The position numbers and the translations under genes were made by a program. The notes below the pieces were generated by a model. It saw nothing but the letters and a program-made list of their open reading frames with translations, was not told where the DNA came from and did no database searches. A DNA stretch of 64,000 nt from Escherichia phage JEP6. The stretch lies in the sequence record MT764206.1, one strand, 5' to 3'. Positions 1 to 17,984 of this stretch are shown one piece after another; positions within the stretch are counted from its first letter, which is position 1; every line of letters starts with the position of its first letter.

Positions 1-3334
<3,334 letters not shown>

Positions 3335-3362
3335 TATTAAAGCATATTAAAGAGGATTAAAA

Positions 3363-5342
3363 ATGACTTTATTATCTCCGGGCATTGAGCTCAAAGAAAC
3401 TACGGTTCAAAGCACCGTGGTTAATAACTCTACTGGTACAGCAGCTTTGGCCGGTAAATTCCAGTGGGGTCCTGCTTTTCAGATTAAACAGGTTACAAAT
3501 GAAGTAGATTTAGTTAATACTTTTGGTCAACCAACCGCTGAAACTGCTGACTATTTTATGTCTGCGATGAATTTCTTGCAGTACGGAAATGACTTACGAG
3601 TAGTTCGTGCTGTTGATAGAGATACCGCTAAAAACTCATCTCCGATTGCCGGTAATATTGAATACACAATTTCTACCCCAGGTAGTAACTACGCAGTTGG
3701 AGATAAAATCACGGTCAAATATGTTTCAGATGCTATTGAAACTGAAGGTAAAATTACCGAAGTAGACGCAGATGGAAAAATTAAGAAAATTAATATTCCT
3801 ACTGCAAAAATTATTGCTAAAGCTAAAGAAGTTGGCGAATACCCAACATTAGGTTCTAACTGGACTGCGGAAATTTCTTCATCTTCCTCTGGTTTAGCTG
3901 CAGTAATAACTCTTGGAAAAATTATTACTGATTCTGGTATTTTATTAGCTGAAATTGAAAATGCTGAAGCTGCTATGACAGAGGCTGGCTTTCAAGCAAA
4001 TCTTGAAAAATATGGAATTCCAGGAGTAGTAGCTCTCTATCCAGGCGAATTAGGCGATAAAATTGAAATTGAAATCGTATCTAAAGCTGACTATGCGAAA
4101 GGCGCTTCTGCATTACTGCCAATTTATCCAGGTGGTGGTACTCGCGCATCTACTGCCAAGGCAGTATTTGGATATGGACCACAAACTGATTCACAGTACG
4201 CTATTATAGTTCGTCGCAATGATGCTATTGTTCAAAGTGTTGTTCTTTCAACTAAGCGTGGTGAAAAAGATATTTACGATAGTAACATCTATATCGATGA
4301 CTTTTTCGCAAAAGGTGGTTCAGAATATATTTTTGCAACTGCACAAAACTGGCCAGAAGGCTTCTCTGGAATTTTAACTCTGTCTGGTGGATTATCATCA
4401 AATGCTGAAGTATCAGCAGGAGATTTGATGGAAGCTTGGGACTTCTTTGCTGACCGTGAATCCGTTGATGTTCAACTGTTTATTGCAGGTTCTTGTGCCG
4501 GTGAATCTTTAGAAACAGCATCTACTGTCCAAAAACACGTCGTTTCAATTGGGGATGCTCGCCAAGATTGCTTAGTATTGTGCTCTCCTCCACGTGAAAC
4601 TGTAGTTGGAATTCCTGTAACTCGTGCAGTAGATAATTTAGTTGACTGGAGAACTGCGGCAGGTTCATACACTGATAATAACTTTAATATCAGTTCAACC
4701 TATGCAGCAATTGATGGTAACTACAAGTATCAGTATGACAAATATAATGATGTGAATCGTTGGGTTCCATTAGCAGCTGATATTGCTGGTTTATGCGCAA
4801 GAACTGATAACGTATCTCAGACTTGGATGTCTCCAGCTGGTTATAATCGTGGTCAGATTCTTAACGTTATTAAACTTGCTATTGAAACTCGCCAGGCTCA
4901 GCGCGACCGTTTATACCAAGAAGCTATCAACCCAGTAACTGGTACAGGTGGCGATGGTTATGTATTGTATGGTGATAAAACAGCTACTTCTGTTCCTTCT
5001 CCATTTGATCGTATTAACGTTCGTCGTCTGTTTAATATGTTGAAAACGAATATCGGACGTAGTTCAAAATATCGTTTGTTCGAATTAAACAACGCGTTTA
5101 CTCGTTCATCATTCCGCACAGAAACTGCCCAGTACTTGCAGGGAATTAAAGCTCTCGGTGGAATTTATGAATATCGTGTAGTTTGCGATACAACAAATAA
5201 TACTCCGTCAGTAATTGATAGAAATGAGTTTGTTGCAACATTCTACATCCAACCGGCGCGCAGTATAAATTATATCCAACTTAATTTCGTCGCAACTGCC
5301 ACTGGTGCAGATTTCGATGAGTTAACTGGTCTTGCTGGTTAA
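3363..5342 (+). CDS. 18: Tail sheath protein gp18 (659 aa)
   Basis: Length and sequence match T4 gp18; preceded by late promoter. Confidence 0.95.
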   Translation: MTLLSPGIELKETTVQSTVVNNSTGTAALAGKFQWGPAFQIKQVTNEVDLVNTFGQPTAETADYFMSAMNFLQYGNDLRVVRAVDRDTAKNSSPIAGNIEYTISTPGSNYAVGDKITVKYVSDAIETEGKITEVDADGKIKKINIPTAKIIAKAKEVGEYPTLGSNWTAEISSSSSGLAAVITLGKIITDSGILLAEIENAEAAMTEAGFQANLEKYGIPGVVALYPGELGDKIEIEIVSKADYAKGASALLPIYPGGGTRASTAKAVFGYGPQTDSQYAIIVRRNDAIVQSVVLSTKRGEKDIYDSNIYIDDFFAKGGSEYIFATAQNWPEGFSGILTLSGGLSSNAEVSAGDLMEAWDFFADRESVDVQLFIAGSCAGESLETASTVQKHVVSIGDARQDCLVLCSPPRETVVGIPVTRAVDNLVDWRTAAGSYTDNNFNISSTYAAIDGNYKYQYDKYNDVNRWVPLAADIAGLCARTDNVSQTWMSPAGYNRGQILNVIKLAIETRQAQRDRLYQEAINPVTGTGGDGYVLYGDKTATSVPSPFDRINVRRLFNMLKTNIGRSSKYRLFELNNAFTRSSFRTETAQYLQGIKALGGIYEYRVVCDTTNNTPSVIDRNEFVATFYIQPARSINYIQLNFVATATGADFDELTGLAG

Positions 5343-13744: not shown

Positions 13745-14023
13745 TCAAAATGTAATTTCTAACCAATCACCATCACGCTGGTCACTATTGACTTTAAAGC
13801 TAAATCCTTCTTTTCTCAGCCAATCACCAATTTCTTCAGTAATCAATTTATCACGAGCAGTACAATAATAATTAAAATGTGTTTTACCTTGTTCAGCTGC
13901 TTTATTAGCAAGTTCCGAAAAATCTTTAATAAAACACTCTAGCTTAAACTGTTTACTTTTTAATGCTTTTTCGCGTAGTTGATTAGCAAAAGATTCATTT
14001 TCATAAAGATCATACTGTTCCAT
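13745..14023 (-). CDS. Hypothetical protein (T4 24.2 position)
   Basis: 92-aa ORF, coupled to neighbours. Confidence 0.6.
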   Translation of the reverse strand: MEQYDLYENESFANQLREKALKSKQFKLECFIKDFSELANKAAEQGKTHFNYYCTARDKLITEEIGDWLRKEGFSFKVNSDQRDGDWLEITF

Positions 14024-14225
14024 TTTTCACCTTTTTATTGATATGTCTTTTTCTATAGACAACTTTTTCTCGAGTTTCAAATTTATTCTTAGCAGTCATA
14101 GCTCGAGCCCATAATACAGCCACTTCTTTCGCCTGTAAGTTCAATTCACGAGCAATTTCAATGAATGACTTTCCAGACTCATGGAGTGTAAACACCACAA
14201 CCTCAGTTCTCATAATCAATCTCAT
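14010..14225 (-). CDS. Small putative HTH DNA-binding protein (T4 24.3 position)
   Basis: 71-aa ORF. Confidence 0.55.
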   Translation of the reverse strand: MRLIMRTEVVVFTLHESGKSFIEIARELNLQAKEVAVLWARAMTAKNKFETREKVVYRKRHINKKVKNGTV

Positions 14226-14293
14226 GTTATCGAGTTGGTGCCATTATATACATCATTTTCTGATTGTGTTTGTGTGCTTTCAAAATGAAGAAA

Positions 14294-14307
14294 GGGGCCG
14301 AAGCCCC
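14294..14307 (-). terminator. Hairpin terminator downstream of hoc
   Basis: GGGGC-CGAA-GCCCC. Confidence 0.65.
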
Positions 14308-14313
14308 TTATGA

Positions 14314-15732
14314 TTATGGATAGGTATAGATGATACCAGTTTCTAAAGCAGTTTTATGAATGATGTATCCATTACGCGATTCTTGGACATCAACTTCTGG
14401 ATAGTCTTTCATCATCTTCTGAAGAGTGTAACGATGCAAGTAGTACTTACTATCTGGATCGTCAGTTTTCCAATCTTTACCTTCTTCGGTCATTTTTTGG
14501 ATTTCATCCATAACCCACCAACCGCACCAGATGTAAGCTGAAGTACGATGTGGAAGAGGATGAACATAAGGTAATTCACCTTTAGGAGCAGGAGCAACTT
14601 TATCAGTCACTTGAACTTGACCTGTTGTTTTAACTGTTTTGCTATCATAATCAGTAGCAGTAACAGTTGCAGTAACTTCAATAGTTTGACTTCCAATAGA
14701 TGATGTATCAACGGTGTATACATTAGTTGACCCTTCTACTGGAGAAGAATCTTTCTTCCATGAATATTCGATTTGTGCTTCTTCTGGAGCATCCGTAACA
14801 TTAGCAGTAAATGTAGCCGAAGCATCTTGCTGAACGTTAATAGAAGGAGGAGTCAATGTAACCTGTGGATTCATTGTTTTCTTATTAACAGTCAATGATA
14901 CTTCATTAGAAGTAACTTCCTTTTCATTGTAATTTTCTGCAGTTACTTGCGCTACACACTTAACTGTTTTAGCTCCAACTGTGGTAGGAGTATAGTTAAA
15001 TGTAGTAGTAGTTTCTCCATCGACCAGAGAACCGTCAACATACCACTGATACGTAGCAGACGCTCCTGGTGGCTGTGAAGCCAAGGTAGCAGTAAATTGA
15101 ACTGGGGTTCCAATAACTCCTGCTGGAGGATTAGCAGGAGTTACGGCTAACGTAGTTGTCTGTGTTTTCTTATTAACAGTCAGTGACACTTCATTAGAAG
15201 TAACTTCCTTTGCATCATAATCTGTCGCGGTTACTTGAGCTACACACTTAATTGTTTTAACTCCGCTTGCGTCAGGAGTGTAATTGAATGTAGTGCCAGT
15301 TGCTTCGCCCACAGGAGAACCGTCAACGTACCATTGATATGTAGCGTTTGCACCTGATGGCTGTGAAGCTAAGGCAGCGGTAAATTCAATTGGAGTTCCA
15401 ATCACTCCAGCATCAGGGCTACCAGGAGTTACAGCTAATGTAGTTGTCTGTGTTTTATTTTGAACTGTGATAGTTGTCGTAGCTTCTGCCGTTTCAGCTT
15501 CAGCTTCTGGAACTGGGTTTGTTGCAACTACTTTAATAGTCTTTTGGCCGGCAGGCCCTTTTAGTACATAATTAAAAGTTGCTGACGTTTCTTCCTGTGG
15601 AGCGTCGTCTACAGTCCAAGCATATGTAATAGGTCCATCTCCAGTTTGACCACTGGGTGTAGCAGTAAACTGCTGAGTCTGATCTATAACTCCAGTAGGT
15701 GTTTTAGGAGTTATATCAACTGTAAAAGTCAT
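14314..15732 (-). CDS. hoc: Highly immunogenic outer capsid protein Hoc, 472 aa with an extra tandem Ig-like domain
   Basis: T4 Hoc-like N- and C-termini; two near-identical 96-aa units. Confidence 0.9.
   Translation of the reverse strand: MTFTVDITPKTPTGVIDQTQQFTATPSGQTGDGPITYAWTVDDAPQEETSATFNYVLKGPAGQKTIKVVATNPVPEAEAETAEATTTITVQNKTQTTTLAVTPGSPDAGVIGTPIEFTAALASQPSGANATYQWYVDGSPVGEATGTTFNYTPDASGVKTIKCVAQVTATDYDAKEVTSNEVSLTVNKKTQTTTLAVTPANPPAGVIGTPVQFTATLASQPPGASATYQWYVDGSLVDGETTTTFNYTPTTVGAKTVKCVAQVTAENYNEKEVTSNEVSLTVNKKTMNPQVTLTPPSINVQQDASATFTANVTDAPEEAQIEYSWKKDSSPVEGSTNVYTVDTSSIGSQTIEVTATVTATDYDSKTVKTTGQVQVTDKVAPAPKGELPYVHPLPHRTSAYIWCGWWVMDEIQKMTEEGKDWKTDDPDSKYYLHRYTLQKMMKDYPEVDVQESRNGYIIHKTALETGIIYTYP
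14881..15456 (-). repeat. Tandem 288-bp duplication inside hoc (two Ig-like domain units)
   Basis: Motif cttattaaca at 14881 and again at 15169; gcta at 15146 and 15434; encoded units KKTQTTTLAVTP...SLTVN twice. Confidence 0.85.
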
Positions 15733-15741
15733 AAGTTATCC

Positions 15742-16422
15742 TTATTTTAATGTTACGAAAGAAGAATTGCGTGTTTCACGAATTAGAACTGATCCGTCAC
15801 GATTAATGTAGTAAATTAAGCTAAATAAAGTTTGGTGTGCCGACGCATGTTCAAAACTAGTTGGGTGAGATTTCCAATCCGGAGTTTCAGCAATCCACTG
15901 GTAAATCCACCAAGGAACAGTACAGAATCCTGGATTTTTTCCAATCAGCTGAAGATTCGGACTAAAGTTTTCCGGAAGAGTAAATACAGACGGCTTTTCA
16001 GATTCAATAATCTCAGCTACAGCCTGTTCAAATTTTTCTTCAACAAAAGGAGTATCTTCAATCAAAACATCGGTATTTTCGGGAATTTTATCCATTTCTA
16101 CTACTTCAATTTTAATGTCAGATTTAACCGGAGAATCAATCAGAAGTGCTGCTTCTGGATTGACTTCTTCATCGTCATATTTTAACCCCTCTGCAGCATC
16201 AGCAGCATTGATTAAGTCTTTAATAGATAACCCATCAGTCTCTGGCATAGGTTCACTAGCGAGCTTCTGGAGGGCTTCTTCAATATCATTAACGATATTA
16301 TCAAAAGATTTATTCTTTTTGACCTTTATACCAAACTGTTCAGCATATTCAGCTAATTTAGCCTTAGCTTCTTTATTATCATCAAGAGCCTTCAGCTCTG
16401 CAATATAATCTTTATCTATCAT
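15742..16422 (-). CDS. inh: Inhibitor of prohead protease (Inh)
   Basis: 226 aa, T4 Inh-like. Confidence 0.85.
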   Translation of the reverse strand: MIDKDYIAELKALDDNKEAKAKLAEYAEQFGIKVKKNKSFDNIVNDIEEALQKLASEPMPETDGLSIKDLINAADAAEGLKYDDEEVNPEAALLIDSPVKSDIKIEVVEMDKIPENTDVLIEDTPFVEEKFEQAVAEIIESEKPSVFTLPENFSPNLQLIGKNPGFCTVPWWIYQWIAETPDWKSHPTSFEHASAHQTLFSLIYYINRDGSVLIRETRNSSFVTLK

Positions 16423-16435
16423 AATATTTCCTCAG

Positions 16436-16443
16436 TATAAATA
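16436..16443 (+). promoter_or_regulatory. Late promoter TATAAATA upstream of uvsW
   Basis: Exact consensus. Confidence 0.7.
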
Positions 16444-16472
16444 TAGATATATTTATTACATGGTATTTAGAC

Positions 16473-17984
16473 ATGACTGACATTAAAGTACATTTTTATG
16501 ATTTTAGTCACGTGAGAATTGATTGTGAAGAAAGTACATTTCATGAACTCCGTGATTTCTTTAGCTTTGAAGCTGATGGGTATCGTTTTAATCCGAAGTA
16601 CAGATATGGCCACTGGGATGGACGAATCCGTCTTTTAGATTATAATCGTCTTCTTCCATTCGGCTTAGTCGGGCAAATTAAAAAGTTCTGTGATAACTTT
16701 GGCTATAAAGCCTGGATTGACCCACAAATTAACGAAAAAGAAGAATTATCAAGAAAAGATTTTGATGAATGGCTTTCTAAATTAGAAATCTATTCAGGAA
16801 ATAAAAGAATTGAACCGCATTGGTATCAAAAAGATGCAGTGTTCGAAGGATTAGTTAATCGTCGTAGAATTCTTAATCTTCCAACATCCGCTGGTAAATC
16901 GTTAATTCAAGCTTTGCTTGCGCGATATTATTTGGAAAATTATGAAGGTAAAATTCTTATCATTGTTCCAACAACTGCTCTGACAACTCAGATGGCTGAT
17001 GACTTCGTCGACTATCGTTTATTCAGCCATGCAATGATAAAGAAAATCGGTGGTGGAGCATCAAAAGATGATAAATATAAAAATGATGCACCAGTCGTTG
17101 TTGGTACATGGCAAACTGTAGTTAAACAACCGAAAGAATGGTTCTCCCAATTTGGAATGATGATGAATGATGAATGTCATCTTGCTACAGGAAAAAGTAT
17201 TTCATCCATCATATCAGGTTTAAATAACTGCATGTTCAAATTCGGTTTGTCTGGTTCATTACGTGATGGCAAAGCCAATATCATGCAGTATGTTGGAATG
17301 TTTGGTGAAATATTTAAGCCAGTAACGACTTCTAAGTTAATGGAAGATGGACAAGTAACTGAGTTAAAAATTAATAGTATTTTTCTTCGCTATCCCGATG
17401 AGTTCACTACTAAATTAAAGGGAAAAACTTACCAAGAAGAAATAAAAATTATTACTGGGCTCAGTAAAAGAAATAAATGGATCGCTAAATTAGCTATTAA
17501 GCTTGCACAAAAAGATGAAAACGCTTTTGTCATGTTTAAACATGTATCGCATGGTAAAGCTATTTTCGATTTAATTAAAAATGAATACGATAAAGTTTAT
17601 TACGTATCAGGGGAAGTTGATACCGAAACCCGCAACGTAATGAAAACCTTAGCTGAAAATGGTAAAGGAATAATTATAGTAGCGAGTTATGGTGTATTTT
17701 CTACTGGTATTTCAGTTAAAAATCTGCATCATGTTGTTTTAGCGCACGGCGTTAAATCAAAAATTATTGTATTACAAACAATCGGTCGTGTATTACGTAA
17801 GCATGGTTCTAAAACAATCGCAACAGTCTGGGACCTCATAGATGACGCGGGCGTCAAGCCAAAATCTGCTAATACGAAAAAGAAATATGTTCATTTGAAC
17901 TATCTTTTAAAACACGGCATTGATCGTATTCAGCGCTACGCAGATGAAAAATTTAATTACGTAATGAAAACAGTTAATTTATAA
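16473..17984 (+). CDS. uvsW: UvsW DNA/RNA helicase
   Basis: 503 aa; SF2 helicase motifs (GKS Walker A, DECH); late promoter upstream. Confidence 0.93.
   Translation: MTDIKVHFYDFSHVRIDCEESTFHELRDFFSFEADGYRFNPKYRYGHWDGRIRLLDYNRLLPFGLVGQIKKFCDNFGYKAWIDPQINEKEELSRKDFDEWLSKLEIYSGNKRIEPHWYQKDAVFEGLVNRRRILNLPTSAGKSLIQALLARYYLENYEGKILIIVPTTALTTQMADDFVDYRLFSHAMIKKIGGGASKDDKYKNDAPVVVGTWQTVVKQPKEWFSQFGMMMNDECHLATGKSISSIISGLNNCMFKFGLSGSLRDGKANIMQYVGMFGEIFKPVTTSKLMEDGQVTELKINSIFLRYPDEFTTKLKGKTYQEEIKIITGLSKRNKWIAKLAIKLAQKDENAFVMFKHVSHGKAIFDLIKNEYDKVYYVSGEVDTETRNVMKTLAENGKGIIIVASYGVFSTGISVKNLHHVVLAHGVKSKIIVLQTIGRVLRKHGSKTIATVWDLIDDAGVKPKSANTKKKYVHLNYLLKHGIDRIQRYADEKFNYVMKTVNL

What the first reader, a model, noticed from the sequence alone, without database searches (positions are those of the whole stretch)
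14881..15456. Hoc carries a recent tandem duplication of an Ig-like domain (288-bp unit, 472-aa protein)
Two adjacent 288-bp units are highly similar at the nucleotide level and encode two 96-aa units KKTQTTTLAVTP...SLTVN that differ at a minority of positions. The resulting Hoc is 472 aa, against the 376 aa I recall for T4 Hoc. A longer capsid fibre could change adhesion to surfaces or mucus, and the repeat is a substrate for further expansion or contraction by recombination.
Basis: seen in the sequence. Interest (0 to 1): 0.45.

Follow-up and report, generated by a model that had tools for sequence, protein, structure and literature searches.

The report
Common four-Ig Hoc allele, old duplication
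The capsid-fibre gene hoc of this T4-like phage does contain two tandem copies of one immunoglobulin-like domain, but the duplication is old and shared with a large share of sequenced relatives, so it is an ordinary, already-sequenced allele and not a recent event.

Summary
The hoc ORF (14314-15732, minus strand, 472 aa) holds two adjacent in-frame 288-bp units at exactly the stated coordinates: A = 15169-15456 and B = 14881-15168. They share 231/288 nt (80%) and 74/96 aa (77%). The extra 96 aa is a second copy of T4 Hoc domain 2, and T4 Hoc is 376 aa.

"Recent" is not supported.
- Synonymous divergence between A and B (dS 0.55) exceeds that between this phage and T4 in the rest of hoc (0.19-0.37).
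- In nine two-copy genes, all first units group against all second units (bootstrap 200/200).
- Shigella phage pSs-1 has the same gene at 98.6% identity, with both units identical to the window's.
- About a third of a 60-record sample of 656 matching GenBank phage records carry the 1419-bp form.

Close relatives carry one, two or three domain-2 units (376, 472 and 568 aa). Some single-copy alleles are A-to-B chimeras. HP3 (two units) and fPS-65 (one unit) have identical flanks. Copy number therefore changes repeatedly, most likely by unequal homologous recombination. dN/dS of 0.27 indicates both units are kept functional.

An assembly artefact is excluded. A functional effect of the longer fibre is untested.

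The parts
14314..15732 (-). hoc, the highly immunogenic outer capsid (head decoration) protein: 472 aa, four Ig-like domains plus a C-terminal capsid-binding domain
   Evidence: ORF. phmmer against T4 Hoc 5vf3_Z gives E 1e-206. Pfam PKD and Ig_3 hits. 98.6% nt identity to pSs-1 'Hoc-like head decoration'. Same position as in T4, between inh and 24.3.
15457..15732 (-). Domain 1 (aa 1-92), Ig-like
   Evidence: AF2 beta-sandwich at aa 4-91 with pLDDT around 90. Aligns to T4 Hoc residues 1-92.
15169..15456 (-). Repeat unit A (aa 93-188), a domain-2-type Ig-like domain; the 'A' lineage that comes first in multi-copy Hocs
   Evidence: A/B profile score 192.8 bits. Carries the A state at all 17 diagnostic sites. 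100% identical to pSs-1 unit 1.
14881..15168 (-). Repeat unit B (aa 189-284), the second domain-2-type Ig-like domain; the 'B' lineage
   Evidence: Profile score 191.0 bits. Carries the B state at all 17 diagnostic sites. 100% identical to pSs-1 unit 2, and 96.9% to the single unit of fPS-65.
14605..14880 (-). Domain 3 (aa 285-376), Ig-like (Ig_3 / I-set)
   Evidence: Pfam Ig_3 at aa 289-355. AF2 strands at aa 290-376. Aligns to T4 Hoc residues 189-280.
14317..14604 (-). C-terminal capsid-binding domain (aa 377-472)
   Evidence: Nearly identical to T4 Hoc residues 281-376, the segment Fokine et al. 2023 used to define Hoc homologs (PMC10385173). dN/dS 0.05-0.10 against other phages.
14292..14309 (-). 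Terminator-like GC hairpin followed by a T run, directly 3' of hoc
   Evidence: A terminator is annotated at the same position in Yersinia phage fPS-65.

Best explanation
This is the ordinary 'two domain-2' allele of Tequatrovirus hoc. The protein is a linear string of four Ig-like domains (D1, D2-A, D2-B, D3) anchored to the centre of capsid hexamers by the conserved C-terminal domain. The two D2 units are old paralogues, or old alleles brought into tandem. They are shared in the same order by many T4-like phages, and both are kept under purifying selection. D2 copy number (1, 2 or 3) changes repeatedly among close relatives, most likely by unequal homologous recombination between the conserved unit ends during T4-type recombination-dependent replication or mixed infection. 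Shown here: the repeat, its age relative to phage divergence, its spread, the copy-number series, the chimeric units and the four-domain fold prediction. Inferred: the recombination mechanism and its direction, a fibre roughly one Ig domain (about 4 nm) longer than T4's 18 nm, and any effect on adhesion.
For: The repeat and its frame are established. Hoc identity and synteny are established. The full-length 1419-bp form occurs in pSs-1 (98.6%), EPIMRB01, sb4, ime09, HP3, G4500, slur04, PaulHMueller, Ge15 and AR1. In the evenly spaced sample of 60 out of 656 records, about 21 have the 1419-bp form and about 31 the 1131-bp form. Among the top 120 protein clusters, 80 are 376-377 aa, 30 are 472 aa and 9 are 567-570 aa, holding 1, 2 and 3 D2-type units respectively. 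For nine two-copy genes the A|B bipartition has 200/200 bootstrap support, also on third codon positions alone; A-A identity averages 0.90, B-B 0.88, and A-B at most 0.81. Seventeen near-fixed diagnostic sites separate the two lineages. dS(A,B) is 0.55 in the window and up to 1.37 in other phages, against 0.19-0.37 for window versus T4 in D1, D3 and the C-terminal domain; dN/dS(A,B) is 0.27. For copy-number change: the D1 and D3+C-terminal parts of HP3 (2 units) and fPS-65 (1 unit) are 100% identical. teqhad equals ime09 with a 288-nt deletion and a breakpoint at gene nt 483-508 (18 mismatches in 1131), and Geo does so with a breakpoint at nt 387-398 (28 mismatches in 1131); both are A-to-B chimeras. 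The first unit is A-type in 40 of 41 multi-copy clusters. The AF2 model has mean pLDDT 84.9 and four beta-sandwich domains at aa 4-91, 98-187, 194-283 and 290-376. Foldseek finds four-Ig proteins and RB49 Hoc 3shs. Published work already records Hoc homologs with 1 to 10 Ig-like domains (PMC10385173).
Against: The direction of events is not resolved. A-to-B chimeric single-copy alleles could also come from ordinary equal crossover between single-copy A-type and B-type alleles. T4's own D2 belongs to a third lineage (78-81% to A and to B, 89.6% to the middle unit of a three-unit Hoc), which a simple A-B deletion model does not explain. The frequency estimate comes from a sample of 60 rows, not a full count. 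No expression, virion or binding data exist for this protein. HP3, which I show has a two-D2 Hoc, bound mucin less well than the unrelated phage ES17 in Green et al. 2021 (PMC7885116), so a longer Hoc is not evidently a strong mucin binder.
Confidence: 0.88

Rival explanations
1. A recent tandem duplication that arose in this phage's own lineage.
For: The units are adjacent, in frame and of exactly equal length. The first 17 nt are identical and the last ~45 nt differ at only two positions between the copies.
Against: The units show 20% nt divergence with dS 0.55. Both are 100% identical to those of pSs-1. A and B lineages are shared across nine phages with 200/200 bootstrap support. The allele is present in roughly a third of sampled relatives.
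Confidence: 0.03
2. An assembly artefact: an expanded repeat created by misassembly.
For: Tandem repeats longer than short reads can be mis-assembled. BYEP02 hoc does carry a suspicious 77-nt duplication with a frameshift.
Against: The two units differ at 57 of 288 positions, so reads place uniquely, and artefactual expansions give identical copies. The ORF is intact. The same architecture appears in many independent assemblies from different laboratories and in metagenomes.
Confidence: 0.01
3. Not an in-situ duplication followed by divergence. The two-unit gene was instead built by unequal recombination between two co-infecting phages that already carried diverged single-copy D2 alleles (A-type and B-type). 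On this view the 20% divergence reflects allelic age, not age since duplication.
For: Single-copy Hocs with pure A (15 clusters), pure B (51) and T4-like C (14) units exist. Three-unit genes combine A, C and B types. hoc Ig arrays behave as exchangeable cassettes: phage SG1 is 98.7% identical over 25 kb but has a different Ig array, with the switch at the D3/C-terminal junction.
Against: The A-first order is nearly universal in multi-copy genes (40 of 41), which suggests one origin and not repeated assembly. Single-copy units nest inside two-copy clades, so many single-copy alleles are more simply derived by deletion. Even under this rival, the arrangement predates the divergence of the phages that share it.
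Confidence: 0.25

Closest known systems
Bacteriophage T4 Hoc (376 aa; PDB 5vf3, 8t1x; NP_049793)
   Same: Same gene at the same locus between inh and 24.3. [quoted passage not shown] The D2 type is the same.
   Different: T4 has one D2 unit, and it belongs to a third lineage (78-81% nt to the window's A and B). The window has two units, giving 472 aa and four Ig-like domains.
Shigella phage pSs-1 Hoc-like head decoration protein (YP_009110998, 472 aa) and the 472-aa Hocs of ime09, HP3, slur04, Bas45 PaulHMueller and others
   Same: Same length and the same D1-A-B-D3-C-terminal architecture. pSs-1 is 98.6% nt identical over the whole gene, with both repeat units 100% identical.
   Different: Only point differences outside the repeat for pSs-1; 6-11% nt divergence for the others.
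568-aa Hoc of Escherichia phages UGKSEcP1 and UGKSEcP2
   Same: Same framework, with A-type first unit and B-type last unit.
   Different: A third, T4-like or chimeric D2 unit lies between A and B.
Variant short Hocs: PNJ-9 (283 aa, lacks D3; PMC11853027) and vB_Eco_EH2 (281 aa, D1/D2 hybrid)
   Same: In-frame whole-domain changes in the same gene.
   Different: They lose a domain where the window's gene gains one. PNJ-9's D2 residues S183/L184/T185, reported to bind MUC2, lie in the SLT motif that occurs twice in the window's Hoc (aa 183-185 and 279-281).
Hoc homologs with variable Ig strings (RB49 Hoc 3SHS; Serratia phage Muldoon, 10 Ig domains; Fokine et al. 2023, PMC10385173)
   Same: A conserved C-terminal anchor plus a linear string of Ig-like domains of variable number.
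   Different: Those are distant homologs. Here the variation is a copy-number polymorphism of one domain type among phages of a single genus.

Membership tests
Hoc (T4-type head outer capsid decoration protein) | C-terminal capsid-binding domain homologous to T4 Hoc residues 281-376 | tested here: met
   Query aa 273-472 aligns to T4 Hoc 177-376 with 403.6 bits and only a few substitutions.
Hoc (T4-type head outer capsid decoration protein) | N-terminal linear string of Ig-like (PKD / I-set) domains | tested here: met
   Pfam PKD (E 3.4e-11) and Ig_3 hits. The AF2 model has four beta-sandwich domains with pLDDT around 90. Foldseek matches four-Ig proteins and RB49 Hoc 3shs.
Hoc (T4-type head outer capsid decoration protein) | Conserved genomic position between inh and 24.3 / rnlB in the late head-gene region | tested here: met
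   The window order rnlB-24.2-24.3-hoc-inh-uvsW matches T4 and pSs-1.
Hoc (T4-type head outer capsid decoration protein) | One copy bound at the centre of each gp23 hexamer of the virion; dispensable for infectivity | not testable with these tools
   Needs virion proteomics, cryo-EM or genetics.
Recent lineage-specific tandem duplication | Copies nearly identical, and closer to each other than to the corresponding units of related genomes | tested here: not met
   A versus B identity is 80% in the window and at most 80.6% across nine phages, while A-A averages 90% and B-B 88%. The A|B split has 200/200 bootstrap support. dS(A,B) is 0.55.
Recent lineage-specific tandem duplication | Absent from close relatives | tested here: not met
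   Present in pSs-1 at 98.6% identity and in about 21 of 60 sampled matching phage records.
Copy-number-variable tandem domain array maintained by unequal recombination | Alleles that differ by whole units among otherwise near-identical genes, with chimeric units at predicted breakpoints | tested here: met
   Forms with 1, 2 and 3 units exist. HP3 and fPS-65 flanks are 100% identical. teqhad and Geo are A-to-B chimeras that match virtual 288-nt deletions of ime09.
Copy-number-variable tandem domain array maintained by unequal recombination | Direct demonstration that the recombination is unequal and intragenic, not equal exchange between alleles | tested here: inconclusive
   Chimeras fit both routes. 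Passage experiments or population sequencing are needed.

The most novel reading that the evidence does not exclude
Domain-2 copy number in Tequatrovirus Hoc (one to three units drawn from three diverged module types A, B and T4-like C) may be a fast-switching, selected length and valency polymorphism. It would be generated by unequal recombination and would tune how far the capsid fibres reach and how many glycan-binding SLT-motif sites each fibre carries. That would alter mucus adherence or escape from anti-Hoc antibodies. I found no paper describing this polymorphism.
Probability: 0.25. Interest if true: 0.5.

Novelty: already known. Interest (0 to 1): 0.2.

Why it matters
For this window it matters little. 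The gene is a near-copy of an allele already deposited for pSs-1 and carried by many sequenced T4-like phages, and published work already records Hoc homologs with variable numbers of Ig-like domains. The comparative by-product is of modest interest to people working on phage adherence to mucus, phage display on Hoc and phage immunogenicity. Within one genus, Hoc fibres come in steps of one 96-aa domain (about 280, 376, 472 and 568 aa), apparently interconverting often. This offers natural near-isogenic pairs such as HP3 and fPS-65 for testing whether fibre length or domain-2 valency changes mucin binding.

Tried and rejected
- I rejected a recent duplication on divergence, phylogeny and spread, and an assembly artefact because the copies are diverged and many independent assemblies share them.
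- A scan of IMG/VR viral contigs for relatives gave only 21 loci, few of them close, so the DNA comparison used GenBank phage records instead.
- I considered counting multi-copy genes with an A/B junction query. The search tool joins out-of-order pieces into one place, so coverage would not separate one-copy from two-copy genes. I used the evenly spaced sample instead.
- Strict protein-level diagnostic sites gave only two positions, so I moved to nucleotides, which gave 17 sites.
- A simple model in which T4's single D2 is a deletion product of A-B does not fit. T4's unit shows a B-to-A pattern and many unique sites, so I treat it as a third lineage.
- blastp self-comparisons returned only the diagonal, so repeats in SG1 Hoc were measured by explicit unit alignment.
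- Literature searches for a description of a four-Ig Hoc or of D2 copy-number variation in Tequatrovirus found none. One search failed on a term that was too short.

Full report
**The observation**

The window has a 472-aa ORF on the minus strand at 14314-15732. Tandem Repeats Finder reports a 288-bp period with 2.0 copies at 14875-15456, 81% matches and score 773. The repeat finder gives two 288-nt copies at 80% identity, spaced 288 nt apart.

In the reading frame, the units are aa 93-188 (unit A, window 15169-15456) and aa 189-284 (unit B, window 14881-15168). These are exactly the coordinates given. They share 231/288 nucleotides and 74/96 residues. The differences fall 15/14/28 on codon positions 1/2/3, and of the differing codons 22 are synonymous and 22 non-synonymous. 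The first 17 nt are identical between the copies and the last ~45 nt differ at only two positions.

**What the gene is**

The protein matches T4 Hoc (PDB 5vf3_Z, 376 aa) with E 1e-206. T4 residues 1-190 align to query 1-190 and T4 177-376 to query 273-472. The extra 96 aa is therefore a second copy of T4 domain 2.

- Pfam finds PKD and Ig_3 domains.
- The gene order rnlB-24.2-24.3-hoc-inh-uvsW is the same as in T4, where hoc is 1131 nt and encodes 376 aa.
- An AlphaFold2 model (mean pLDDT 84.9) has four beta-sandwich domains at aa 4-91, 98-187, 194-283 and 290-376. A less confident helical C-terminal domain follows.
- The repeat units coincide with whole domains.
- Foldseek finds four-Ig proteins (Sidekick, Dscam, ICAM-5 D1-D4) and the RB49 Hoc crystal structure 3shs.
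- An AAGGA ribosome-binding site precedes the ATG. A GC hairpin with a T run follows the stop codon at 14292-14309, where fPS-65 has an annotated terminator.

**How common the allele is**

Megablast of the gene against 50,697 phage records finds 656 records.

- Shigella phage pSs-1 matches the whole 1419 bp at 98.6%.
- Full-length 1419-bp matches also occur in EPIMRB01, sb4, ime09, JK08, HP3, G4500, slur04, Ge15, PaulHMueller, AR1 (1425 bp) and others.
- In the evenly spaced sample of 60 records, about 21 have the 1419-bp form and about 31 the 1131-bp T4-like form. Two have forms of about 850 bp, and a few match only the 3' end.
- Among the best 120 clusters in the protein database, 80 are 376-377 aa, 30 are 472 aa and 9 are 567-570 aa.
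- A profile built from units A and B finds one, two and three strong domain-2-type units in these three length classes.

The 472-aa Hoc is thus a common allele that is already deposited and annotated. Because it recurs in many independent assemblies and its copies are diverged, an assembly artefact is excluded.

**Age of the duplication**

I extracted hoc DNA from 22 phages and compared the 288-nt units.

- In nine two-copy genes, all first units group against all second units in 200 of 200 bootstrap replicates. The same holds with third codon positions alone.
- A-A identity averages 0.90 and B-B 0.88, while A-B never exceeds 0.81.
- Seventeen near-fixed nucleotide sites distinguish the two lineages.
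- Both window units are 100% identical to those of pSs-1.
- Synonymous divergence between A and B is 0.55 in the window and 0.66-1.37 in other phages. Window versus T4 gives 0.19-0.37 in D1, D3 and the C-terminal domain.

The two units are therefore at least as old as the radiation of the sequenced Tequatrovirus, and "recent" is not supported. dN/dS between A and B is 0.27, so both are kept under purifying selection.

**Copy-number dynamics**

- Single-copy genes carry pure B units (RB10, fPS-65), pure A units (one IMG/VR phage) or A-to-B chimeras (teqhad, Geo).
- teqhad equals ime09 with a virtual 288-nt deletion and a breakpoint at gene nt 483-508, with 18 mismatches in 1131 nt. Geo does so with a breakpoint at nt 387-398, with 28 mismatches in 1131.
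- HP3 (two units) and fPS-65 (one unit) are 100% identical in D1 and in D3 plus the C-terminal domain.
- In the 120 protein clusters the first unit of multi-copy genes is A-type in 40 of 41 cases. Architectures A-B, A-C, A-B-B, A-B-C and A-C-B all occur.
- T4's own domain 2 belongs to a third lineage, which I call C. It is 78-81% identical to the window's A and B and 89.6% identical to the middle unit of the 568-aa UGKSEcP1 Hoc.

Unequal homologous recombination between the conserved unit ends is the most economical mechanism. However, equal crossover between diverged single-copy alleles could also produce the chimeras. The two-unit gene might also have been assembled from two pre-existing alleles instead of arising by in-situ duplication. 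Direction and mechanism are therefore inferred, not shown.

**Other domain-level variation seen on the way**

- PNJ-9 Hoc (283 aa) lacks domain 3, as published (PMC11853027).
- EH2 Hoc (281 aa) is a D1/D2 hybrid joined at the ITYAW|YVDD motif.
- BYEP02 hoc has a 77-nt tandem duplication that breaks the frame.
- Salmonella phage SG1 is 98.7% identical to the window over 25 kb but shares only the last 289 nt of hoc, at 99.7%. Its 470-aa Hoc has a different Ig array in which a domain-3-type unit is duplicated, with 73% aa identity between the copies. Four-Ig Hocs have therefore arisen more than once, and the Ig array behaves as an exchangeable cassette on a conserved anchor.

**Function**

Established knowledge is that T4 Hoc forms about 155 fibres, each 180 Å long, with three Ig-like domains on a C-terminal anchor. 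Homologs carry from 1 to 10 Ig-like domains (PMC10385173).

By inference, a fourth domain adds roughly one Ig length (about 4 nm). It also adds a second copy of the SLT motif (aa 183-185 and 279-281) that Fu et al. report as the MUC2-binding site in domain 2 of PNJ-9 Hoc (PMC11853027).

No data show that the longer form binds better. HP3, which I find has a two-unit Hoc, bound mucin less well than the unrelated phage ES17 (PMC7885116). That comparison is not isogenic.

**Comparison with what is known, and verdict**

The gene meets every testable defining feature of Hoc. It is a near-copy of the pSs-1 allele. Variable Ig-domain number in Hoc homologs is published. I found no paper that describes the domain-2 copy-number series within Tequatrovirus, but the sequences themselves are public and annotated.

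I rate the feature as already known and of low interest for this window. There is a modest residual interest in the copy-number polymorphism as a natural experiment on fibre length and valency.

Noticed in passing
window 14314-14602 versus L040 (Salmonella phage SG1, MF001354) 2201-3613: SG1 is 98.7% identical to window 1-25000 but shares only the 289 nt of hoc that encode the C-terminal anchor (99.7%). Its 470-aa Hoc has a different Ig array, with a duplicated domain-3-type unit (73% aa identity between copies). This is an independent route to a four-Ig Hoc, and it suggests the Ig array is exchanged as a cassette at the D3/C-terminal junction.
   Followed up: partly
L035 (vB_Eco_EH2) 301-1146; L036 (PNJ-9) 301-1152: There are two different short Hocs. 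EH2 (281 aa) is a D1/D2 hybrid domain joined at the shared ITYAW|YVDD motif. PNJ-9 (283 aa) lacks domain 3, as published.
   Followed up: partly
L037 (Escherichia phage BYEP02) 301-1796: hoc carries a 77-nt tandem duplication (query nt 1128-1204 present twice). It shifts the frame, and the gene is annotated as two CDS. This may be a pseudogene or a sequencing or assembly error.
   Followed up: partly
L038 (UGKSEcP1) 301-2007; L039 301-2007: These 568-aa Hocs have three domain-2 units. The middle unit of UGKSEcP1 is 89.6% identical to T4's single domain 2 and only 76-77% identical to its own neighbours, so three diverged module types (A, C, B) coexist in one gene.
   Followed up: partly
window 16423-16472: No segE homing-endonuclease gene lies between inh (15742-16422) and uvsW (16473-17984). 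T4 has segE at this position. pSs-1 lacks it, as the window does.
   Followed up: no
window 16473-17984: uvsW is a 503-aa ORF, as in pSs-1, where it is followed by a separate 231-nt ORF also annotated as a DNA helicase. The T4 reference record annotates a single 1764-nt uvsW and carries a note about sequence discrepancies in this region.
   Followed up: no
window 14010-14225: The ORF at the gp24.3 position is 71 aa, against 56 aa (171 nt) annotated in T4 and 61-71 aa in other relatives. The start of this small gene is variable or inconsistently annotated.
   Followed up: no
window 14292-14309 (minus strand): A strong terminator-like hairpin (AAGGGGCTTCGGCCCCTT followed by a T run) lies immediately downstream of hoc, at the same place as an annotated terminator in fPS-65.
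   Followed up: partly
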